The translations under genes were made by a program, and so were the position numbers. From a virus (taxonomy: Duplodnaviria > Heunggongvirae > Uroviricota > Caudoviricetes), in IMG/VR virus record IMGVR_UViG_3300001533_000890, positions 449-64,448 of that record: DNA of 64,000 nucleotides; one strand, 5' to 3'. Each line of letters opens with the position of its first letter. Position 1 is the first letter of the stretch. Of the stretch, positions 42,179-54,367 are shown one piece after another. Below the pieces are notes generated by a model. The model was not told the DNA's origin. It was given only the letters and a program-made list of their open reading frames with translations, and made no database searches.

Positions 42179-42954
42179 ACCAGCCGCCATCGACTCTCGA
42201 TATTTTCCAAGGCGACAACCTCAAAATCTTGTCTCGTTTCGACCGACCATGTTTTGATTTGATTTACATGGATCCGCCTTTTAATACGGGCCGTACTCAA
42301 AAGGCTGCCGAGGGTACGTATGCCGATACTTTTGAGGACTACTCAGCGTTTCTTGAACCACGTCTTAAAGCGGCCTTTGAGCTACTTGATGCGGCGGGGA
42401 CTTTGTGTGTTCATTTGGACTACCGGGAAGTCCACTACGTAAAAGTCTTGCTGGACCGGCTTGTTGGCCGCGAGTGTTTTCTTAACGAAATTATCTGGGC
42501 GTATGACTTTGGTGGTCGGGCAAAGAAGCGCTGGTCTGCCAAACACGACACTCTTTTACTCTATGTAAAGGACGCGAAGGAGTATACATTTCGCTTTGAT
42601 GACATGGAACGCATCCCCTACATGGCCCCCGGGCTGGCGGGTCCGGAAAAAGCTGCGAGGGGGAAAACTCCGACCGACGTGTGGTGGCACACAGTTGTCC
42701 ACACCCGGGGGAAAGAACGTTGCGGCTACCCCACTCAGAAACCAGTCGGCTTGCTTAATCGATTGATAACAGTCCACACACATCCCGGCGACCTTGTGTT
42801 GGATTGTTTTGCCGGGTCTGGCACAACCGGCGAAGCAGCTCTTAAAAACGGACGCAGCGCCGTACTCATTGACTCAAATCCGGACGCGATTAAAGTAATG
42901 ATGCGCCGTCTTGAAGAATATTCTCCTCGCCTCCACCCGGAATCCCATGCCTGA
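42175..42954 (+). CDS. DNA methyltransferase, beta-class (N6-adenine or N4-cytosine)
   Basis: Motif IV LIYMDPPFNTGR occurs before motif I CFAGSGTTGEAALKNGRSAVLIDSNPDA. Confidence 0.7.
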   Translation: MNQPPSTLDIFQGDNLKILSRFDRPCFDLIYMDPPFNTGRTQKAAEGTYADTFEDYSAFLEPRLKAAFELLDAAGTLCVHLDYREVHYVKVLLDRLVGRECFLNEIIWAYDFGGRAKKRWSAKHDTLLLYVKDAKEYTFRFDDMERIPYMAPGLAGPEKAARGKTPTDVWWHTVVHTRGKERCGYPTQKPVGLLNRLITVHTHPGDLVLDCFAGSGTTGEAALKNGRSAVLIDSNPDAIKVMMRRLEEYSPRLHPESHA

Positions 42955-45724
42955 ACTTCAAACACTTAAACTGATAACTGAAACGGCTTCTGGCACACTT
43001 GTTAAGCAGCCCGTCACTATTCGTGTTGTAAGAAACCGGATTGAATTTGTCAAGTCTCCCTTTGGTTTGAAGGATGAGATTAAGGCAATGAAGGGTTCAA
43101 AGTGGCATGGTTTTGAAGACCCGCCACGAAAGATTTGGAGTGTAGCAGACTGCGACCGCAACCGTTTTCAACTCGCCTACATGGCGGGTGAAAATCCTTA
43201 TGAATGGTGGGACCGCCCTCTTATCGAGCATGAGTATGAGCGGCCACTGCGTGAACACCAGAAGTTGATGGCAAACTTCGGCCTTACGTACCATTTTGGT
43301 ATCTTTGCGGCCGAGATGGGATGTATTGCCGGGGATGCAACCGTCCATGTGAATCGCGCGGGCAAGAGTTTTTCAATAACTCTTGCAGAGCTATGTTACA
43401 AGTTTCATGGCGGGGCCACTTACAACGGACCTACAACGCTAAATCGCCCTTCTAAACGAGTCTGGGATACATCTATCGACACCTTTGTACGGGGGTTTCG
43501 GGGCGAAGCGTTTGGTCTAACAAAGATCATTGATGTAGTTTTCCAGGGCCACAAGAAAGTTAAGTTGTTGAGGACTAAATCCGGCAAAGTGCTGCGGCTT
43601 ACTCCTGACCACGAGCTGTGCATCAATGCTTACCGGTATGGCACATTCAAACCTCTCAATGAATTGATGCCCGGGGATTATATCATGGTGGCCGCTCCTG
43701 ATGGATTTGCCCGGCAGTCGCGGGCCGTGCCGCAAACGCCTCCTAGCCGGTTGACAAAAACAACGCAACAAGGTCTGGGGCATTTTATTGACAACGACGG
43801 GTATGTTCGTGTTGGAGGTTTGAAAGGCCACCCCCGCGCCAACCGATCGAATCAGGTGTATGAACACATTCTCGTAGTAGAGGAACTGTTAGGTCGACGG
43901 GTCACAGTAAAAGAGCAGATTCACCATTTGAATCAGCAGCGGTGGGATAATCGGCCGGAGAACTTGGTGGTCTGCACAGCAAGAGAGCATGCAGACTTTC
44001 ATAGTGGTAATAAGGTTCACTTACACAATGGTACTAACTCATCTGCGTTCTGTTTTTGTTTTGACCCAATCGCGTCAATCGAGGATGGTGGCACCGTTGA
44101 TGTATACGACATAAAGTGTGAGGGGCCCTACCACAACTTCATCGCTAATGGTATTGTAGTACACAATTGCGGCAAGACCCTTAGTGCTATAGAGGTTATG
44201 GAACAGTCGGGCTACAATGATTGGATTTGGGTTGGCCCCAAGGCGGGCCTCCGCGCGGTTGAACGTGAGTTTCATAAGTGGGGACTTACTGATGTAAACC
44301 TCGATCTATTTACGTATGAAGCTCTGACCTCTAAGATGAAGAATTGGACACCAGGCGACCTTCCCCCTCACGGTGTCATCTTTGACGAGTCAAGCAGACT
44401 TAAGAATCACCATAGCCAACGGGCCCAGGCCGCGCAGGCATTAGCTGACGGCATCCGGGCCGAGTATGGTCGCGATGGGTTCGTTATTCTAATGACCGGC
44501 ACTCCATCCCCTAAGTCTCCTGTAGATTGGTGGTCCCAGGCTGAGATTGCGTGCCCTGGTTTTCTGCGCGAAGGTGACATGAGGGCTTTTGAACGAAGGC
44601 TGGGCATCTTTGTAGAGAAAGAAACATCTCAAGGCAAGCACCTTCAACGTGTAACATGGTTGGATACAGAAGAAAAGTGTGCTATTTGCGGTGGCCTTGA
44701 GGATGAAGAACAGCATCAATTTGAATACGCCGAGGATTACCACCGATGGAAACCAAGCGTCAATGAAGTTGCGTTACTGCACGAACGCCTGGACGGATTG
44801 GCCCTTGTAATGCACAAGAAGGATTGGCTCGACCTTCCCGAGAAACAATACCGAGTTGTGCAGTGTGAAGTTACACCCACTATTGACCGCGTAGCCAAGG
44901 CTCTGGTTAAACTGGCGCCTAATGCCATGACAGGTTTGACGTGGTTGCGGGAGCTAAGCGATGGATTTCAATATAGAGAAGAGGTTCAGGGGACGGAGCC
45001 CTGCCCCGCATGCGCGAACACAGATACCCCGGGTAAGTTGCCAGTTTGGGTTGATCCAGATGATCCTGACCGAACTTTTGAAATGGTAGACATGCTGGAC
45101 CCTGAGTATGTTTCGACCTTATCAAAAGAACTGCAAACCTGCAAAACATGCGATGGTACATTAGAAGTGCCTCATAAGGTGCGAGTTATTCGAGAGGTTC
45201 CGACGCCTAAAGAGAAGGCCACAATTGAACTGCTAGAAGAGAACGAAGAAACCGGACGCTTGGTTATTTTTGCAGGGTTCACCGGCTCTCTTGATCGGCT
45301 GGGAAAGCTATGCCAAAAGCAGCGCTGGGCAGTGATCCGGGTGGATGGCCGTGGGTGGAAAGTTTGGGATAGCGCTGGCAACCCAATAGTCGTTGAAAAT
45401 CCACTGGATTATTGGGCCGACTTAGAACACAACCCTCGTGTTGTTTTTGTCGCACACCCAAAGTCAGGCGGTATGAGTTTAACTCTCACCGAAGCGTCTA
45501 TGGCGGTATTCTACTCCAATGATTTCTCACCAGAGTCGAGATCCCAGGCGGAAGATCGAATTCATAGAATTGGTGTGGATGAGAACAAAGGTGCCACTAT
45601 TGTTGACCTTATCCATTTACCTACTGATGAGCATGTACGTAGTATTCTCCGTGAGAATCGCAGGCTTGAATTAATGACTCTTGGCGATATTGCCGCAACC
45701 GTTGGCGTGGAGACTGATGAATGA
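42946..45724 (+). CDS. SNF2-family helicase/ATPase with an intein inserted in the Walker A P-loop
   Basis: The exteins AAEMG|...|CGKTLSA rejoin as GCGKT. DExH box VIFDESSRLKNHH. C-terminal helicase domain with a Zn-ribbon. Confidence 0.7.
43322..44167 (+). mobile_element. intein (282 aa) with HNH homing endonuclease, inserted in the helicase P-loop
   Basis: Starts CIAGDATV, ends IVVHN with a +1 Cys. HNH motif EQIHHLNQQRWDNRPENLVVCTAREHADFH. Confidence 0.75.
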
Positions 45725-46218
45725 AGACCCTTATTATGACGGTGGGTTTACCTCGATCAGGTAAAAGTACATGGGCAAGAACGCAGCGACACCCAATAGT
45801 TAATGGGGACTCGATTCGATTGGCATTACATGGGCAGCCCTATGTTTTGGAGGCTGAGCCAATGGTTTCATGTGTTAAGCACCTGATGGTAAAGGCTTTA
45901 CTCCTTGCGGGCCATGACACGGTTATTCTCGACGGTACACACACAACGCAGGCTAACCGTGATAGATGGCTTTCACCTGATTGGGACCGGGTATTTATCA
46001 CGTTTGGGGGCCCCGAGATGTTGGACGTATGCTTAGAGCGTGCCTTGAAAACTTGTATCGGCCGCAAGCATGTTGAAGACCTTACAATGTCTATTCGACG
46101 CATGGCCCGGGGGTACGAACGCCCTACATCTTTTGAGAAGACAGTGGGTATTTATACCCACTCCGAACACCCGGTACAGGGAGAACTTACACCTTTTCCG
46201 GAGATTAGAAATGCCTGA
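45721..46218 (+). CDS. P-loop kinase, polynucleotide-kinase-like
   Basis: Walker A GLPRSGKST, VILDGTH, RDRW. 165 aa, small Pnk or AAA_33-like. Confidence 0.5.
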   Translation: MKTLIMTVGLPRSGKSTWARTQRHPIVNGDSIRLALHGQPYVLEAEPMVSCVKHLMVKALLLAGHDTVILDGTHTTQANRDRWLSPDWDRVFITFGGPEMLDVCLERALKTCIGRKHVEDLTMSIRRMARGYERPTSFEKTVGIYTHSEHPVQGELTPFPEIRNA

Positions 46219-47132: not shown

Positions 47133-47474
47133 ATGAACTTTGATTTTATTCCATTGATGATTGTGCTCGCCCTAATTTTGACGGGGTACCTGTGTCGATA
47201 CACTTTGTTATACGCAGTACGCCGGGCGGGGCCACAGTCGGGGTCGGAGTGGCCTGAATTGGACGAGTGTATTCAACTTTTAGCTCGACACCGAGGTACC
47301 TTGCGTTTTGAAGATGACCCTGAGAGCCCGGATATAATCCACGGCTCAATTCGGGTTGGAACCCCGGCGAAGCGACGTGTCGCTCATTTTACGTTTTCGC
47401 GCGACAAGATTCCTTCGGCCGCGAGTTACTCCTTGATTCCACTTTGTGATGCCCTCAAGTTGGAGGGGTATTGA
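47133..47474 (+). CDS. hypothetical membrane-anchored protein
   Basis: 113 aa, N-terminal transmembrane segment. Confidence 0.35.
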   Translation: MNFDFIPLMIVLALILTGYLCRYTLLYAVRRAGPQSGSEWPELDECIQLLARHRGTLRFEDDPESPDIIHGSIRVGTPAKRRVAHFTFSRDKIPSAASYSLIPLCDALKLEGY

Positions 47475-47725
47475 TGCTTTTTCACAACCTTTCTAAGGTA
47501 AACACAATGATTCCTGAGCATGAATTTGACGACCCATTTGAAGAGCCCTTTGACTTTGATGACCTTGATTACGACCCCGCCGACGTTGTTCGTTTTACGG
47601 GCGACGAGTTGCGGGTAATTGGGCGATTGGCACAGAACTTGCTCTCCAATGCTGTTGAAGTGGGCATTAACCCAGACTTGCTTGAGGACATTTACTTGAA
47701 AACCTACTCATTTATTGATGCGTGA
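47471..47725 (+). CDS. small acidic protein
   Basis: 84 aa, Asp/Glu-rich. Confidence 0.3.
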   Translation: MMLFHNLSKVNTMIPEHEFDDPFEEPFDFDDLDYDPADVVRFTGDELRVIGRLAQNLLSNAVEVGINPDLLEDIYLKTYSFIDA

Positions 47726-47736
47726 CCCTTGAAAAC

Positions 47737-47765
47737 CTTGACAAGACCCAAAACACATGGTACAA
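47737..47765 (+). promoter_or_regulatory. sigma70 consensus promoter (TTGACA, 17-nt spacer, TACAAT) driving the tRNA-like ncRNA
   Basis: TTGACAagacccaaaacacatggTACAAT. The predicted transcription start lies about 7 nt downstream, at roughly 47772-47775. Confidence 0.6.
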
Positions 47766-47774
47766 TAGAATATA

Positions 47775-47897
47775 GGACCCCGTGGTGTAATGGTAACACA
47801 CGTTTATGCTTCACCACACCTTGCCTTAACGGGCCGACGGTAAAGCGTTATTGAACTGTTAATTCCGTAATCCAGGTTCGAGTCCTGGCGGGGTCGT
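47775..47897 (+). ncRNA. tRNA-like non-coding RNA (YrlA/Y RNA-like candidate). It has acceptor, D and T arms, but about 70 nt replace the anticodon arm.
   Basis: 5' GACCCCG pairs with 3' CGGGGTC. D-arm GTGTaatggtaACAC. T-arm CCAGGttcgagtCCTGG. No canonical anticodon stem. Internal helix GCTTCACC/GGTAAAGC. Confidence 0.5.
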
Positions 47898-48045
47898 TTG
47901 TCGGGCCGCTTGCAATGGGTTATCGTTTTGGATAAGACCCCATTGCAAACACTTGTCCGCCACCTTACAAACGGGCCGCTTGTGTCGGGTTATTGGTTAA
48001 TATTATCCCGACCCAGTTACTTGCCCGTTGTTCTTTAACTGGAGA
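47898..48045 (+). promoter_or_regulatory. two stem-loops sharing a GGGCCGCTTG direct repeat, in the leader of the Ro60 gene or the 3' part of the ncRNA
   Basis: Hairpins TTGCAATGGG(loop)CCCATTGCAA (47910-47948) and GTCGGG(loop)CCCGAC. Confidence 0.35.
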
Positions 48046-48050
48046 ATAGA

Positions 48051-49655
48051 ATGGCAAACTATGCGAGTCACCTTGTTACGGCAACCCAGCGGGAACCCTT
48101 GTTTGATCGTAAACAGATTAAGAACGATGCTGGAGGTTACGTTTTTAAGGTTGAGCCCTTTCAGGTTCTCCAACGGTTTCTCATTCTAGGCTGTGACGGC
48201 GGAACTTATTACACGGGCGAGGCGCAGATGACTCGCCGCATGGCGAAAGTTTTACAAGAATGCGCCCGACGGTCTGTTGAGTCAACTATCACCACCATAC
48301 TTCAAGCGCTGCCCCGCGCAATTAAGCCAACCCCTGCGGTTTTTTGTCTTGCTTACTTGTCTAGTGGTAAGTGCGGCCCGCAGGCGGCGCGGGCGGCTTT
48401 GGCCGAAGTTAACACGGTTTGTCGCACCGCTTCGCATCTCTTTACGTTCGTGGAGCAAACAACGAAATTCCGGGGCTGGGGACGCGGCCTGCGGAAAGCC
48501 GTGGCGGGCTGGTATACGGCTAAGGACCCACAGTCTTTGATGTATCAGGTTACGAAGTATGGTCAACGAGAGGGCTACACGCATCGTGACCTCCTTCGTT
48601 TGGCACATCCTTACTCCCCTGAGTTGAATGAAGTTTTTCGGTACATTTGCAGCGGAGAGTACACCAAGAATGACACCCTTGGTTCATGGCTATCCGTGAT
48701 TAATAGTCTGTCCGAAGCCACAAGTGCCAAGTCTGTTGCGAAGCATATCCGGGCTTGGCGATTGGTTCGCGAAGTTATTCCAACCAAGTGGCTCAATTCT
48801 TCCTTGGTGTGGGAGGCGCTGCTTGATAGGATGCCATATACAGCCTTGGTTCGCAACCTTGGGAAGATGACCGCTGTTGGGCTACTAACGCCTTTTAGCG
48901 ATGCTTCTAAACTGGTTTGTGAGCGGCTGCGGTCGGCGGGGCAGGCTCTTCATCCTGCTGCATTGTTGCTGGCAAGCACCACCTATCAAAAAGGTCAAGG
49001 CGTCAGGGGCAACTTGTCTTGGAACCCTGACCAGAATATTTGTGAGGCACTTGAGGACGCATTTTACGGCGCTTTCGACACTGTGACACCCGCTGGCAAG
49101 AACTTTATGCTGGCAATCGACGTTTCTGGCTCCATGGGCTGGCGCGGTTTTGACTTCCTGGGTTCTATTGCTGGCACACACCTTAAAGCTTACCAAGCCG
49201 CCGCTGTTATGGCGCTGGCACAGACGCGGTCCGAGCCATGGTGCCTTACGACGGCATTTACTGGCCGGCAGGGTAACAGACGCGCCGGTGGTCTTAAGCT
49301 CGTGGAAAATTTCGGCCGACACTGCCGTTTACAGCCCGCTTTGGATGAGCTTAGGCGAATTCCGGTTGGTCCAACAGACTGCGCACTTCCAATGATTTAC
49401 GCCCGGGAAAATAAATTACCGGTTGACACTTTTGTTGTCTACACTGATAACGAAAGCTGGCAGGGTAAAACGCACCCTTGTCGAGCCCTCGAAGATTATC
49501 GGCAAGCCACGGGTCGCGATGCCAAATTGGTTGTTTGTGCATTGACTGCTACTGAGTATTCGGTAGCTGACCCGGATGATCCCGGAATGCTTGATGTTGT
49601 AGGTTTTGACCCCACTTGCCCATCCGTTATCTCTCGTTTTGCAGGAGAACTTTAA
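48051..49655 (+). CDS. rsr: Ro60/Rsr-like ribonucleoprotein (TROVE domain with C-terminal vWA/MIDAS)
   Basis: 534 aa, the typical Ro60 size. vWA MIDAS motif FMLAIDVSGSMGW near residue 360. An adjacent tRNA-like ncRNA is characteristic of Rsr and Y RNA loci. Confidence 0.65.
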   Translation: MANYASHLVTATQREPLFDRKQIKNDAGGYVFKVEPFQVLQRFLILGCDGGTYYTGEAQMTRRMAKVLQECARRSVESTITTILQALPRAIKPTPAVFCLAYLSSGKCGPQAARAALAEVNTVCRTASHLFTFVEQTTKFRGWGRGLRKAVAGWYTAKDPQSLMYQVTKYGQREGYTHRDLLRLAHPYSPELNEVFRYICSGEYTKNDTLGSWLSVINSLSEATSAKSVAKHIRAWRLVREVIPTKWLNSSLVWEALLDRMPYTALVRNLGKMTAVGLLTPFSDASKLVCERLRSAGQALHPAALLLASTTYQKGQGVRGNLSWNPDQNICEALEDAFYGAFDTVTPAGKNFMLAIDVSGSMGWRGFDFLGSIAGTHLKAYQAAAVMALAQTRSEPWCLTTAFTGRQGNRRAGGLKLVENFGRHCRLQPALDELRRIPVGPTDCALPMIYARENKLPVDTFVVYTDNESWQGKTHPCRALEDYRQATGRDAKLVVCALTATEYSVADPDDPGMLDVVGFDPTCPSVISRFAGEL

Positions 49656-49852
49656 TGTCAACCACTGCACCAGAAATTGGAGACGTCGCCGCCTGTCAAA
49701 GTGGGACCCTTGGAGTGGTTAAGTCAATTCGCATCCAAGGAAACGGGCGAATTCTCTATGAGGGTACAACTGTGGATGGAAGTCGCCCGTGGCAAAGTGT
49801 GCGCCCGGCTCGGGTTGATACTTGGGAGCAGTGGAAAACGCGCCACGCATGA
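49656..49852 (+). CDS. hypothetical small protein
   Basis: 65-aa ORF, TAATG-coupled to rsr and ATGA-coupled to the next gene. Confidence 0.3.
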
Positions 49853-50451
49853 TTTGGTTTATAAGTGACACACACTTTGGGCATGCACGTTTGATGGAGT
49901 CGCCCGAGCGCGCCGGGCGGTTCCCATCTCTTGCTGACCTGGACGCGGCAATTATTGACGGTATTAATCAATACGTCGGCCGCAATGACGTCCTTTATCA
50001 CCTTGGCGACTTTTGTTGGGGTGCCCGTTTGATAGGGCACTATCGGCAGCGCCTTAAAGTACGGACCCTGCACGTTATCCGTGGGAACCACGACCCGGCC
50101 AGTCTTGGGAGGCATTGCTCTACAATGCGTGATATGGCCGTGGTGAAGTTTCGACAGCCGGGGTGGTCGCACTCGATTAAATTTCACCTGTGTCATTTTC
50201 CCATCGTTAATTGGGCGTCGATGCACCGTGGCGGCGGGCATTTGTACGGCCACTGTCACGGCCGGTCGGAAGCTGACTTGAACCGCATCCACCCGGGTCG
50301 TCGCGCCCTCGATGTTAGCGCGGACAATCTTTATCGGTTGTTTGGTAGCTATCGACCAATCAGTTTGGATGATCTAATTGAACGGTGGGACTTGGCAGAA
50401 ACCCGTGATTATTTCCCCGGCCCGTTTGAACACAATAAGGATACACAATGA
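49849..50451 (+). CDS. calcineurin-like metallophosphoesterase (candidate RNA 2',3'-cyclic-phosphate or 3'-phosphate end-healing enzyme)
   Basis: Motifs ISDTHFGH, LGDFCWG, IRGNHD and GHCHGR. Confidence 0.6.
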   Translation: MIWFISDTHFGHARLMESPERAGRFPSLADLDAAIIDGINQYVGRNDVLYHLGDFCWGARLIGHYRQRLKVRTLHVIRGNHDPASLGRHCSTMRDMAVVKFRQPGWSHSIKFHLCHFPIVNWASMHRGGGHLYGHCHGRSEADLNRIHPGRRALDVSADNLYRLFGSYRPISLDDLIERWDLAETRDYFPGPFEHNKDTQ

Positions 50452-51524
50452 GTAATACCCCTGTTGAAATCACCCCTGTCTTAGCTGTTGAACAGCACCC
50501 CAACGCGGACCGTTTGGAATTGGTGCGCGTTATTACCACGCAGTTCATCTCCCAAAAAGGTATTTACCAACAGGGTGATCTTTGTGTCTATTTCCCGCCA
50601 GATGTTATGATTCCTGAAACATTGGCGGAAGAGCTAGGTGTTGCTGCCTACTTAAAGCACTCAATCTACCCCGGCGATTCGTTCAAATCAAAGTGTCGCG
50701 TTGGTGCCATCCGACTTCGTAGCATTGCATCATTTGGTTTCGGACTACCCGTGGATAAAGTGTCCGCGGCGCGGCCGGGTTGTTATGACGATGGAGCAGA
50801 CGTGTCCGAGCTTGTCGGGGCCGTTAAATATCAACCTCCCGAACTAGAAACAATGCGTGGCTCCGACACGGTACGGTCTCCCGAGGCGTTTCACAAGTAC
50901 ACCAGTATCGAACACTATTACCGTAATGCCATCGCGCTGCCAGAAGGCACGCCCGTCCGCGTGACCGAGAAGCTACACGGAACGAACTCCCGAGTCGGCC
51001 TAATCTACGACAACGGTTGGGAGTTCATGTGTGGCACCCACCACCGACGGGTCAAGTCGGAGAATGCTCGCGGACGGAAGTCCATCTACTGGAAGCCCTT
51101 AACTGACGGGATGAAAGCTCTCTTATCGCACCTGTCACAAGAGACAAACAATGTTATTGTCTTTGGCGAGATTTTCGGGCGCAAGGTCCAGCCAATGGAC
51201 TACGGGGCTGGACCGGCCGAGGGTTATCGAGTTTTTGACATTTCAGTAAACGGGGACTACCTGGATTGGCACAGTATTTGCACCTTTTGTAGGAAGTTCG
51301 GCATCCCAGTCGTGCCGCTACTACACTCCGGACCATTTTATACGGGCCTGGTCGATGAATTTGTAAGCGGGCCAACATCTGTTGCCCACTCCGAGAATAT
51401 TGCGTGCAAATTCAAAGGACGAGAGGGGATTGTGATAACCCCCTTGACTGAAACTTATAGTCCCGAACTTTGTGGCCGTTTGATTCTGAAAGCCGTCAGT
51501 CCTGATTACTATGAGGCTATGTAA
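50448..51524 (+). CDS. ATP-dependent RNA ligase (Rnl2-like KxHGxN nucleotidyltransferase) with an N-terminal Trbp111/EMAP-like tRNA-binding OB domain
   Basis: The N-terminus AVEQHPNADRLELVRV...GDLCVYFPPDV resembles the tRNA-binding domain of MetRS C-terminus/Trbp111. Ligase motif I VTEKLHGTNSRVG. Confidence 0.6.
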   Translation: MSNTPVEITPVLAVEQHPNADRLELVRVITTQFISQKGIYQQGDLCVYFPPDVMIPETLAEELGVAAYLKHSIYPGDSFKSKCRVGAIRLRSIASFGFGLPVDKVSAARPGCYDDGADVSELVGAVKYQPPELETMRGSDTVRSPEAFHKYTSIEHYYRNAIALPEGTPVRVTEKLHGTNSRVGLIYDNGWEFMCGTHHRRVKSENARGRKSIYWKPLTDGMKALLSHLSQETNNVIVFGEIFGRKVQPMDYGAGPAEGYRVFDISVNGDYLDWHSICTFCRKFGIPVVPLLHSGPFYTGLVDEFVSGPTSVAHSENIACKFKGREGIVITPLTETYSPELCGRLILKAVSPDYYEAM

Positions 51525-54294: not shown

Positions 54295-54367
54295 TGCGCG
54301 GTAGCTCAATTGGTAGAGCGTCCGACTGTTAATCGGATGGTTGCAGGTTCGAGCCCTGCCCGCGCAG
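54295..54367 (+). tRNA. tRNA-Asn (anticodon GTT)
   Basis: Cloverleaf: acceptor TGCGCGG/CCGCGCA, D-arm GCTCaattggtaGAGC, anticodon arm TCCGAcTGTTAaTCGGA, T-arm GCAGGttcgagcCCTGC. 73 nt, no encoded CCA. Confidence 0.85.

What the first reader, a model, noticed from the sequence alone, without database searches (positions are those of the whole stretch)
47737..47960. Consensus sigma70 promoter driving a tRNA-like RNA that lacks an anticodon arm: candidate YrlA-type Y RNA directly upstream of Ro60
TTGACA, a 17-nt spacer and TACAAT place a transcription start immediately before a 7-bp acceptor stem (GACCCCG/CGGGGTC). Canonical D and T arms follow (GTGT-AATGGTA-ACAC and CCAGG-TTCGAGT-CCTGG). About 70 nt sit where the 17-nt anticodon arm should be, so this is not a decodable tRNA. 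tRNA-mimicking Y RNAs (YrlA) are known to be encoded next to rsr. The insert contains a GCTTCACC/GGTAAAGC helix that could be the Ro60-binding stem.
Basis: partly seen in the sequence, partly recalled or inferred. Interest (0 to 1): 0.8.

Follow-up and report, generated by a model that had tools for sequence, protein, structure and literature searches.

The report
Ro60-binding Y RNA in tRNA order
Just upstream of a phage Ro60 gene lies a tRNA-Asn-like RNA with a 50-base Ro60-binding hairpin inserted in its anticodon stem, plus two small Y RNA hairpins. It is the unpermuted counterpart of the known bacterial YrlA RNAs, a form I did not find described in the papers I could search.

Summary
The interpretation needs correcting. 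An anticodon arm is present (CG+GAA / CUGUUAA / UUC+CG, anticodon GUU). It is split by a 50-nt insertion (47803-47852) that carries a closed Y-RNA Ro-binding helix (CCUUGCC-loop-GGGCCGA). With the insertion deleted in silico, ARAGORN calls tRNA-Asn(GTT).

Two further stem-loop Y RNAs (47897-47963 and 47966-48031) follow before Ro60 (48051-49655). The host sequence is a tailed phage.

The same architecture occurs more than 100 times, in about 75 of 240 Ro60 loci examined. It is always on the Ro60 strand and often in tandem. It occurs in cultured Sorangium, Polyangium and Minicystis. Covariation is strong (about 90% of cells paired, against 64-67% in shuffles). An unbiased scan of all IMG/VR contigs found true elements only beside Ro60.

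Canonical YrlA RNAs align end to end with this class only after in-silico circular permutation. So this is a YrlA homologue in native tRNA order, with an open acceptor stem and an anticodon-like loop.

Ro60 binding, tRNA-type processing and function are inferred, not shown. No paper that I could search describes this topology.

The parts
47738..47766 (+). Sigma-70-type promoter: -35 TTGACA (47738-47743), 17-nt spacer, TG (47758-47759), -10 TACAAT (47761-47766). The predicted start is about 47772-47774, 2-4 nt before the acceptor stem.
   Evidence: 11/12 match plus TG; 6 sites found against 2.6 expected in the region, and this is the best one. Function as a promoter is inferred.
47776..47896 (+). 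Y RNA in tRNA order: a tRNA-Asn-like cloverleaf with a Ro60-binding hairpin inserted in the anticodon stem. Discriminator is G47896. No CCA is encoded (GUUU follows).
   Evidence: CM R1 scores 103.6 bits. Leave-one-out profile E=4.7e-17. Covariation in 51 homologues and in an unfitted MAFFT alignment.
47776..47782 (+). Acceptor stem 5' strand GACCCCG, pairing with 47889-47895 CGGGGTC.
   Evidence: In one search, helix 1 is 98.9% paired and all 7 pairs show changes on both sides.
47785..47799 (+). D arm GUGU-AAUGGUA-ACAC.
   Evidence: In one search, helix 2 is 99.5% paired.
47801..47802 (+). Top two pairs of the anticodon stem (C-G and G-C, with 47866-47867). They close the junction from which the insertion emerges.
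   Evidence: In one search, helix 3 is 100% paired with six pair types (CG, GC, UA, AU, GU, UG).
47803..47852 (+). The 50-nt insertion. It comprises a UUU linker, a 10-bp connecting stem (47806-47815 with 47839-47848, carrying one conserved-position mismatch), an internal loop, the Ro-type bulged helix, and UAUU (the YUAY/GUUAUC motif).
   Evidence: In one search, helix 4 is 86% paired and all 10 pairs show changes on both sides. The isolated hairpin folds as drawn. Deleting it gives tRNA-Asn(GTT) in ARAGORN.
47819..47837 (+). Candidate Ro60-binding helix in closed (permuted) form: CC-UU-GCCU / UAAC loop / GGGC-[C bulge]-GA. It corresponds to the GGUCCGA / UUGACC bulged helix of Y RNAs and to the GNCGAAN0-1G motif of YrlA (here GCCGACG).
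   Evidence: GGCCG is invariant in 21 seed sequences. In one search, helix 5 is 96% paired. The motif definition is from Chen 2014. Binding was not tested.
47853..47865 (+). Lower anticodon stem GAA/UUC with the 7-nt loop CUGUUAA (GUU at 47858-47860). Its 3' strand runs straight into the top two pairs.
   Evidence: In one search, 36 of 51 homologues have this 3-bp stem plus 7-nt loop; 33 of 36 have U at loop position 2 and 34 of 36 a purine at position 6.
47872..47888 (+). T arm CCAGG-UUCGAGU-CCUGG.
   Evidence: In one search, helix 7 is 100% paired.
47897..47963 (+). Small stem-loop Y RNA 1 (YrlB-like): GGGCCGCUUG-stem-GGGUUAUC ... stem-CACUUGUCC.
   Evidence: Rfam RF01656 (nematode stem-bulge RNA, a Y RNA homologue) scores 31.4 bits, E=1.2e-4, below the gathering score of 38. 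Fold z=-3.3. It belongs to a family of about 100 hairpins in Ro60 loci whose basal stem covaries.
47966..48031 (+). Small stem-loop Y RNA 2: GGGCCGCUUG-stem-GGGUUAUU ... stem-UACUUGCCC.
   Evidence: RF01656 scores 24.6 bits, E=0.008. Fold z=-3.2.
48051..49655 (+). Ro60 (TROVE plus vWA) gene. GGAG lies 7-10 nt upstream of the ATG.
   Evidence: homologues.
45721..46218 (+). Context: polynucleotide kinase-like protein (AAA_33).
   Evidence: phrog_505, polynucleotide kinase.
49822..51524 (+). Context: metallophosphoesterase (49822-50451) and ATP-dependent RNA ligase with an N-terminal OB fold (50448-51524). With the kinase they form an RNA healing-and-sealing set around Ro60.
   Evidence: The linkage is not conserved in five related loci.
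54295..54367 (+). Context: the phage's ordinary tRNA-Asn(GTT). Like the Y RNA, it has discriminator G followed by UUU and no encoded CCA.

Best explanation
Window 47776-47896 encodes a Y RNA of the YrlA lineage in native tRNA order. It is a tRNA-Asn-like L-shaped body with an open 7-bp acceptor stem, D arm, T arm and anticodon-like hairpin.

Proposed working, all inferred:
- The strong promoter at 47738-47766 drives one transcript carrying this RNA, two small stem-loop Y RNAs and the Ro60 mRNA.
- RNase P and 3' tRNA-processing enzymes excise the tRNA-like RNA, which also frees the downstream hairpins. The host CCA-adding enzyme may add CCA.
- Phage Ro60 binds the GGGCCGA/CCUUGCC helix of all three RNAs.
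- As proposed for YrlA, the tRNA-shaped module then stabilises the RNA and tethers Ro60 to a tRNA-recognising partner or nuclease during infection.

Shown here: the sequence anatomy; conservation and covariation of every helix; exclusive linkage to and co-orientation with Ro60; and the circular-permutation relationship to canonical YrlA.
For: Anatomy.

Ro60 next door.

Family size: 51 distinct full-length homologues of at least 69 bits in 160 metagenomic and viral Ro60 loci. A further 49 hits fall in 33 of 80 genomic Ro60 loci, including Sorangium, Polyangium and Minicystis rosea. All are on the Ro60 strand.

Covariation:
- Model-fitted alignment: 91.3% of cells paired, against 64% in shuffles and 36-44% with partners slid.
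- MAFFT alignment not fitted to the structure: 89.4%, against 67% and 35-46%.

Leave-one-out profile: E=4.7e-17.

Ro motif: GGCCG is invariant and pairs with YUUGCC in the Y-RNA geometry with a bulged C. It matches the YrlA GNCGAAN0-1G motif.

Unbiased IMG/VR scan: all 9 pattern matches that lie in true elements are on contigs with an adjacent Ro60. Only 1 of 71 chance matches is.

Homology to YrlA: 14 canonical YrlA RNAs align end to end (profile positions about 4-120 of 122, 48-72 bits) only after in-silico circular permutation. Their native forms give two half matches in swapped order.

tRNA character:
- ARAGORN calls tRNA-Asn(GTT) once the insertion is deleted.
- Anticodon-loop signatures are kept in 33-34 of 36 homologues.
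- CCA is encoded at positions 74-76 in 7 of 51, against 0.8 expected.

Precedent: M. smegmatis YrlA is cut by RNase P and receives CCA, and YrlA and YrlB are processed from one precursor.
Against: - No expression, processing or binding data exist for this RNA or for any member of the class.
- The single-sequence minimum-free-energy fold is not the cloverleaf: -39.5 kcal/mol, against -29.3 for the comparative structure. A competing GUGGUG/CACCAC pairing exists, and the fold z-score is only -1.7. This is common for tRNAs but remains a caveat.
- The window's Ro motif departs from the consensus by one base (GCCGACG against GNCGAAG). The two hairpins depart by two (GCCGCUU).
- Whether Ro60 tolerates a helix closed at its outer end is unknown.
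- Most loci examined were chosen because they carry Ro60. Only the IMG/VR pattern scan was unbiased, and it sampled exact-consensus members only.
- Two key reviews (Sim & Wolin 2018; Sim et al. 2020) and the supplement of Chen 2014 were not available. A prior description of this topology therefore cannot be excluded.
Confidence: 0.75

Rival explanations
1. It is an interrupted tRNA-Asn gene. The 50-nt hairpin is an intron-like element that is cut out and the halves rejoined, perhaps by the neighbouring kinase, phosphoesterase and RNA ligase, to give a working tRNA-Asn.
For: - Deleting nt 28-77 gives a canonical tRNA-Asn(GTT).
- Discriminator G and the GUU triplet match the known AsnRS identity elements (my own knowledge).
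- Anticodon loops in homologues obey tRNA rules, with U33 and R37, and G37 when position 36 is G.
- CCA is encoded in 7 of 51.
- RNA healing-and-sealing genes flank Ro60 in the window.
Against: - The insertion lies inside a stem strand (between 28 and 29), not at 37/38.
- It has neither a bulge-helix-bulge motif nor a group I core, and it is too short for group I.
- It carries the invariant Ro-binding motif and covaries as a structured RNA.
- It is always linked to Ro60.
- Canonical YrlA with the same core is a stable, unspliced RNA.
- The repair-gene linkage is not conserved in relatives.
- The phage already has an ordinary tRNA-Asn(GTT).
Confidence: 0.06
2. It is a canonical YrlA. On that reading the Ro-binding stem is formed by the RNA's 5' and 3' ends and the acceptor stem is closed.
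For: It has the same modules (Ro motif, YUAY, V hairpin, T arm, D arm) and lies next to Ro60.
Against: - The module order is D before T.
- The acceptor strands lie at the two ends of the element.
- The Ro helix is closed by a UAAC loop.
- Canonical YrlA matches the class profile only as two swapped halves.
- The promoter sits 9 nt upstream of the acceptor 5' strand.
Confidence: 0.02
3. It is a decayed tRNA pseudogene into which a Y-RNA-like hairpin happened to insert, with no function of its own.
For: tRNA finders do not call it. The single-sequence fold is unremarkable.
Against: - More than 100 copies occur in distant lineages, with compensatory changes in every helix.
- Tertiary-interaction nucleotides are conserved (U8, A14, G18G19, the TΨC-type loop).
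- A strong promoter lies directly upstream.
Confidence: 0.02
4. The RNA is a functional mimic aimed at tRNA-directed enzymes. It could act as a decoy or sensor for host anticodon nucleases or tRNA-modifying enzymes, with Ro60 (and, in this phage, the repair enzymes) recruited to the damaged mimic or to damaged tRNAs.
For: - Authentic-looking anticodon loops are retained in most members.
- An RNA repair cassette surrounds Ro60 in this phage.
- Ro60 and YrlA lie in the rsr-yrlBA-rtcBA RNA repair operon of Salmonella, which responds to damaged tRNAs (the title of PMC7790460).
Against: - This is purely inferential.
- Anticodon triplets differ widely between members, so no single nuclease specificity is implied.
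- Some members lack the loop altogether.
- The repair linkage is not conserved.
Confidence: 0.1

Closest known systems
YrlA (Y RNA-like A) of Salmonella Typhimurium, Mycobacterium smegmatis and mycobacteriophages (Chen et al. 2014, PMC4201824; Wang et al. 2018, bioRxiv 10.1101/312249)
   Same: It is encoded next to Ro60 on the same strand. It has the GNCGAA-type Ro motif, the YUAY/GUUAUC element, a V hairpin, and tRNA-like T and D arms and acceptor stem. The homology is demonstrable: canonical YrlA aligns end to end with this class after circular permutation. It is co-encoded with small YrlB-like hairpins.
   Different: The chain topology differs. YrlA has its ends in the Ro stem, a closed acceptor stem-loop and T before D, and is described as lacking an anticodon loop. 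Here the ends are in a 7-bp acceptor stem, the Ro helix is closed by a loop, D comes before T, and a 7-nt anticodon-like loop is present.
RNase P-cleaved, CCA-tailed M. smegmatis YrlA (Chen et al. 2014)
   Same: The mature particle has an open 7-bp acceptor stem with tRNA-like ends attached to a Ro-binding stem.
   Different: That RNA reaches this state in two pieces, by cleavage of a permuted precursor. The window RNA would be a single chain, with the open ends encoded directly.
Stem-loop Y RNAs: bacterial YrlB and Yrn2, metazoan Y RNAs, nematode stem-bulge RNAs (Rfam RF01656)
   Same: The two hairpins at 47897-47963 and 47966-48031 have the basal GGGCCG/CUUGYCC bulged helix and the GGGUUAU upper-stem motif. 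They give sub-threshold matches to RF01656.
   Different: They are shorter than metazoan Y RNAs. They score below Rfam's gathering threshold. The motif reads GCCGCUU rather than the GCCGAAG consensus.
Circularly permuted tRNA genes of red algae and some archaea (cited in Wang et al. 2018)
   Same: These are the same kind of relationship: two gene orders that encode one tRNA-shaped fold.
   Different: Those permuted precursors are processed into ordinary tRNAs. Here both orders appear to be end products that keep a Ro-binding arm.
tmRNA and the TYMV tRNA-like structure
   Same: These are tRNA mimics with a free acceptor end and an anticodon-domain mimic, features linked to aminoacylation.
   Different: They have no relation to Ro60. 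ARAGORN finds no tmRNA in the window.

Membership tests
YrlA (Chen et al. 2014) | Encoded within about 4 kb of a Ro60 (TROVE) gene on the same strand | tested here: met
   The element ends 155 nt upstream of the Ro60 ATG on the + strand. The same holds for all homologues.
YrlA (Chen et al. 2014) | GNCGAAN0-1G Ro-recognition motif | tested here: met
   The class consensus GGCCGAAG fits exactly, and GGCCG is invariant. The window has GCCGACG, one mismatch.
YrlA (Chen et al. 2014) | tRNA-like T arm, D arm and acceptor stem, with the nucleotides needed for tRNA tertiary contacts | tested here: met
   U8, A14, G18G19 and the UUCGAGU T loop are present. The arms are 99-100% paired across 51 sequences.
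YrlA (Chen et al. 2014) | Module order Ro 5' strand, V, T, closed acceptor stem-loop, D, Ro 3' strand (a circularly permuted tRNA); no anticodon loop | tested here: not met
   The order here is acceptor 5', D, closed Ro hairpin, anticodon-like hairpin, T, acceptor 3'. Native YrlA matches the class profile only as two swapped halves.
YrlA (Chen et al. 2014) | Bound by Ro60/Rsr in vivo | not testable with these tools
   This needs immunoprecipitation or a gel-shift assay.
Y RNA (general) | Conserved bulged helix: GGYCCGA paired with UUGRCC, with a bulged C | tested here: met
   G47832 G C47834 pair with G47823 C C47825. One of C47834/C47835 is bulged. G47836 A47837 pair with U47821 U47822. In one search, helix 5 is 96% paired.
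Y RNA (general) | The helix is formed by the RNA's own 5' and 3' ends | tested here: not met
   For the tRNA-order element the helix is closed by a UAAC loop. The feature is met for the two downstream hairpins.
Canonical tRNA (Rfam RF00005) | Continuous cloverleaf with a 5-bp anticodon stem and 7-nt loop, scoring above the tRNA model threshold | tested here: not met
   There is no ARAGORN call and no Rfam hit at the gathering score; the partial match scores 15.7 bits. The stem is interrupted by 50 nt. After in-silico deletion of the insertion the feature is met, as tRNA-Asn.
Canonical tRNA (Rfam RF00005) | Aminoacylation and use in decoding | not testable with these tools
   The discriminator G and the GUU loop are compatible with AsnRS identity (my own knowledge).
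Intron-containing tRNA (group I or bulge-helix-bulge) | Intron in the anticodon loop (usually 37/38), with a group I core or a BHB motif | tested here: not met
   The insertion lies between stem positions 28 and 29. At 50 nt it is too short for group I. No Rfam intron family matched at E<=10. No BHB motif is apparent.
Nematode stem-bulge RNA, RF01656 (for the two hairpins) | Score at or above the Rfam gathering threshold (38 bits) | tested here: not met
   The scores are 31.4 and 24.6 bits. They resemble Y-type stem-loops but are not members of this nematode family.

The most novel reading that the evidence does not exclude
Members of this class are single-chain RNAs with everything the literature says YrlA lacks for charging: a free 7-bp acceptor end (CCA encoded in some members) and an authentic-looking anticodon loop. 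The most novel reading not excluded is this: they are real substrates of the tRNA machinery (RNase P, the CCA-adding enzyme, perhaps AsnRS), so that Ro60 is tethered to an aminoacylatable tRNA. Alternatively, the Ro arm may be removed by healing-and-sealing enzymes to release a tRNA. On either version, this tRNA-order form would be the ancestor from which permuted YrlA arose by tandem duplication, since tandem arrays are common in these loci.
Probability: 0.12. Interest if true: 0.85.

Novelty: new variant of a known kind. Interest (0 to 1): 0.62.

Why it matters
Bacterial Y RNAs are thought to derive from tRNAs. The only characterised tRNA-like class, YrlA, is circularly permuted, so a dimeric-tRNA origin had to be postulated.

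A widespread unpermuted form looks like the simple intermediate that model lacks: a tRNA with a Ro60-binding hairpin in its anticodon stem, often in tandem arrays whose junctions already read in YrlA order. It makes the origin question testable.

It also shows that Ro60 can probably be tethered to an RNA with free tRNA ends and an anticodon loop. That widens the list of candidate effectors to aminoacyl-tRNA synthetases, EF-Tu, anticodon nucleases and repair ligases.

Practically, these elements are missed or mis-called by tRNA finders. They occur in culturable Sorangium, Polyangium and Minicystis, where experiments are feasible.

Tried and rejected
- Megablast and blastn of the locus against 50,697 phage records found nothing.
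- A single-protein pattern scan of IMG/VR found no relative. A profile built from 36 Ro60 proteins was needed.
- Rfam at gathering thresholds called only the true tRNA-Asn. No Y_RNA or YrlA family matched at E<=10. Only the nematode stem-bulge RNA family matched, and only for the two hairpins. A canonical YrlA in L007 was also not called by Rfam.
- Single-sequence folding does not recover the cloverleaf and is not significant for the tRNA-like part. The structure rests on comparative data.
- ARAGORN in intron mode gives a forced 'tRNA-Pro(ggg) with a 30-nt intron'. I reject it as spurious, because it ignores the conserved helices.
- I considered whether the RNA ligase, kinase and phosphoesterase linkage is a conserved part of the system. 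It is not: MazG, SNF2, RecT and ParB genes flank Ro60 in five relatives.
- Four cultured actinophage Ro60 loci (Mareelih, Sparky, Big4, Yaboi) contain only ordinary tRNAs, so the class is absent there.
- The V/anticodon hairpin could not be aligned as a fixed helix (48-55% paired). It was analysed per sequence instead.
- The supplement of Chen 2014 and two Wolin-lab reviews were not held.
Full report
**What is in the sequence**

The 325-nt gap between ORF 47471-47725 and the 534-aa ORF at 48051-49655 holds no ORF of 50 aa or more. The downstream ORF is a Ro60 protein: Pfam TROVE at E=2e-34 and the Ro60 vWA domain at E=5e-52.

The gap opens with the best sigma-70-like site in the region:
- -35 TTGACA at 47738-47743
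- a 17-nt spacer
- TG-n-TACAAT ending at 47766, an 11 of 12 match

A D arm (47785-47799) and a T arm (47872-47888) go with it.

ARAGORN and Rfam at curated thresholds call only an ordinary tRNA-Asn at 54295-54367.

A permissive Rfam scan of 47650-48100 gave two matches to RF01656. This is the nematode stem-bulge RNA family, which is homologous to Y RNAs. The matches lie at 47897-47963 (31.4 bits, E=1e-4) and 47966-48031 (24.6 bits, E=0.008).

Both hairpins have a basal GGGCCG...CUUG(U/C)CC helix and a GGGUUAU upper-stem motif. Both fold better than shuffles (z=-3.3 and -3.2).

About 100 hairpins of the same design occur in other Ro60 loci: GGGCCGAAG, stem, GGGUUAUC, loop, stem, CACUUGCCC. Their basal pairs covary; for example, G-C changes to A-U in 12 of 38 sequences. 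These two hairpins are ordinary small Y RNAs of the YrlB type.

**Finding relatives**

The window is a tailed phage. It encodes a terminase, portal, major head protein, tape measure, primase and DNA polymerase. It has no close DNA relative among 50,697 phage records.

Its Ro60 is at most 41% identical to actinophage Ro60s. It reaches 63% identity to metagenomic proteins. With a 36-protein alignment I fetched three sets of Ro60 loci:
- 80 metagenomic loci
- 80 IMG/VR loci
- 80 genomic loci

**The element is a family**

A motif-plus-pairing script found about 25 elements built like 47776-47895. A covariance model built from 21 of them found many more:
- 51 distinct full-length elements of at least 69 bits in the first 160 loci. 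Ordinary tRNAs score 60 bits or less. The window element scores 103.6 bits.
- 49 more in 33 of the 80 genomic loci. These include complete chromosomes of Sorangium spp. and Minicystis rosea, Polyangium isolates, and MAGs of Kofleriaceae, Longimicrobium, Gemmatimonadaceae and Thermoguttaceae.

All hits lie on the Ro60 strand, and many are in tandem arrays of two to four. Four cultured actinophage Ro60 loci lack the element.

Because these loci were chosen for having Ro60, I also scanned all of IMG/VR with an 18-base signature, CTTGCC-N(2-12)-GGCCGA-N(8-14)-GTTATC. The result:
- Nine matches lie inside full-length elements. Seven of them have Ro60 in the stretch held. The other two are contigs already known to carry Ro60 just outside it.
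- Of 71 chance matches, only one has Ro60 nearby.

A sequence profile built without the window sequence hits 47778-47893 end to end at E=4.7e-17.

**Structure**

On the 51-sequence alignment, 91.3% of cells form standard pairs. That compares with 64% in shuffles and 36-44% when partners are slid. Per helix:

| Helix | Cells paired |
|---|---|
| Acceptor stem | 98.9% |
| D arm | 99.5% |
| T arm | 100% |
| 10-bp connecting stem | 86% (all ten pairs change on both sides) |
| Ro-type helix | 96% |
| 2-bp helix closing the central junction | 100% (six pair types) |

The MAFFT alignment, which was not fitted to the model, gives the same picture: 89.4%, against 67% and 35-46%.

One caveat applies. 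The window's own minimum-free-energy fold differs from this structure (-39.5 against -29.3 kcal/mol) and uses a GUGGUG/CACCAC alternative pairing.

**The anticodon arm is present, but split**

In 36 of 51 members, a 3-bp stem with a 7-nt loop lies directly 5' of the 3' strand of the 2-bp junction helix. Together they make a 5-bp anticodon stem whose 5' strand is interrupted.
- 33 of 36 loops have U at position 2.
- 34 of 36 have a purine at position 6.
- G occupies that position when the preceding base is G, as in real tRNAs.
- The middle triplets are diverse: GUU eight times, plus UGU, GCA, GAU, UUU, GUA and others.

In the window the stem is C47801 G47802 plus G47853 A A47855, paired with U47863 U C C G47867. 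The loop is CUGUUAA.

Deleting 47803-47852 in silico gives a sequence that ARAGORN calls tRNA-Asn(GTT). Like the phage's true tRNA-Asn, the element has discriminator G followed by UUU and no encoded CCA.

Across the family:
- CCA is encoded in 7 of 51 elements, against 0.8 expected.
- 24 of 51 have discriminator C, always paired with a G at position -1. This gives an 8-bp, tRNA-His-like stem.

**The insertion is a Y RNA turned inside out**

The insertion reads: linker (consensus AAAAC), stem strand, CAC-CUUGCC, loop, GGGCCGA(A)G, stem strand, GUUAUC. These are the elements of a stem-loop Y RNA, and of YrlA, in the order 3' strand, loop, 5' strand.

The GGGCC/GA segment pairs with UU/GCC and leaves a bulged C. 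This reproduces the Ro-contacted helix of Y RNAs and the GNCGAAN0-1G motif of YrlA.

**Relation to YrlA**

Published YrlA runs Ro 5' motif, YUAY, V, T arm, closed acceptor stem-loop, D arm, Ro 3' strand. [quoted passage not shown]

I extracted 14 such canonical RNAs from the same set of loci and scored them against the sequence profile of the new class:
- Native, each gives two half matches in swapped order: profile positions 59-120 first, then 4-54.
- Cut in the acceptor loop and closed at the Ro stem, each aligns end to end (positions about 4-120 of 122) at 48-72 bits.

The two classes are therefore circular permutations of one RNA.

Tandem arrays of the tRNA-order form already contain the YrlA order across their junctions. 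This suggests duplication followed by trimming as the route between the two. It fits the dimeric-transcript origin proposed by Sim and Wolin, as cited, and makes it more specific.

A third break point exists in another group of loci (L053-type).

**How it most likely works**

Everything in this section is inferred.
- One transcript from the 47738 promoter carries the tRNA-like Y RNA, the two hairpins and the Ro60 mRNA. No terminator-like site lies between them.
- tRNA 5' and 3' processing releases the first RNA and, with it, the hairpins. M. smegmatis YrlA is cut by RNase P and receives CCA, and YrlA and YrlB come from one precursor.
- Ro60 binds the bulged helix of each RNA.
- The tRNA-shaped body stabilises the RNA and recruits a tRNA-recognising partner, as proposed for YrlA.

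In this phage, Ro60 sits among a polynucleotide kinase, a phosphoesterase and an OB-fold RNA ligase. This recalls the Salmonella rsr-yrlBA-rtcBA RNA repair operon. The linkage is not conserved in relatives, however, so I treat it as context only.

**Novelty and verdict**

Three full-text literature searches and the YrlA papers that were held describe only the permuted topology. Two reviews and one supplement were not available.

I classify the element as a new variant of a known kind: a YrlA-lineage Y RNA in native tRNA order, with an open acceptor stem and an anticodon-like loop. The family and the Ro60 link are right; the architecture, the 'no anticodon arm' claim and the location of the Ro site are wrong, and two more Y RNAs were overlooked.

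Noticed in passing
L005:2872-2975 and L006 about 2900-2990: A complete cloverleaf tRNA (Rfam tRNA 46.9 bits at L005:2886-2955, anticodon loop CUUGAAA). Its 5' leader GGGCCGUUGGAU and 3' trailer CCCGUUUUUGCCCAC look like the two strands of a Ro-binding Y stem. This would be yet another topology: a Y stem extending the acceptor stem of a whole tRNA.
   Followed up: partly
L053:2336-2470 (also L042, L055, L058, L074, L075): A variant with a third break point, placed directly after a TTGACC/TATGCT promoter. It reads 5' CUUGUCGCC-CGG-GCGGGCCGA (a closed Ro hairpin), GGUUAUC, a CUGUUAA hairpin, T arm, closed acceptor hairpin, D arm, connecting-stem strand 3'.
   Followed up: partly
A4 alignment (51 elements), e.g. 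L085:2367-2487, L017:2130-2251: 24 of 51 elements have discriminator C, and all 24 have G at position -1. This gives an 8-bp, tRNA-His-like acceptor stem regardless of the anticodon-like triplet. 7 of 51 encode CCA at positions 74-76. The window element has neither feature.
   Followed up: partly
window 42911-45724 (+): A 937-aa SNF2-type helicase interrupted by an intein with an HNH endonuclease domain (Intein_splicing, HNH_3, SNF2-rel_dom and Helicase_C hits).
   Followed up: no
window 45721-46218, 49822-50451, 50448-51524: A polynucleotide kinase-like gene, a metallophosphoesterase and an RNA ligase (PF09414 with the PHA02142 OB fold) surround Ro60. Together they form an RNA healing-and-sealing set in a phage. 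The linkage is not conserved in five related Ro60 loci.
   Followed up: partly
window 54295-54367 and L161:4284-4355 (Gordonia phage Mareelih): The phage carries an ordinary tRNA-Asn(GTT) 6.4 kb downstream of the Asn-like Y RNA. In Gordonia phage Mareelih an annotated tRNA-Asn(gtt) lies directly downstream of Ro60, followed by a tmRNA and a tRNA array.
   Followed up: no
L022, L026, L091, L105, L143, L184 (canonical YrlA RNAs): The 'V arm' of canonical permuted YrlA RNAs also looks like an anticodon stem-loop, with 7-nt loops such as CUUGUAA, CUGUUAA and CUAUUAA. It is closed by the same covarying 2-bp helix. The published 'variable arm' may therefore be an anticodon-arm remnant.
   Followed up: partly
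L004:2834-2957 and L030:750-857: Rfam's tRNA model scores two of these Y RNAs above its gathering threshold (42 and 49 bits) as tRNAs with a large insertion. Annotation pipelines may therefore label some members as tRNAs or pseudo-tRNAs.
   Followed up: no
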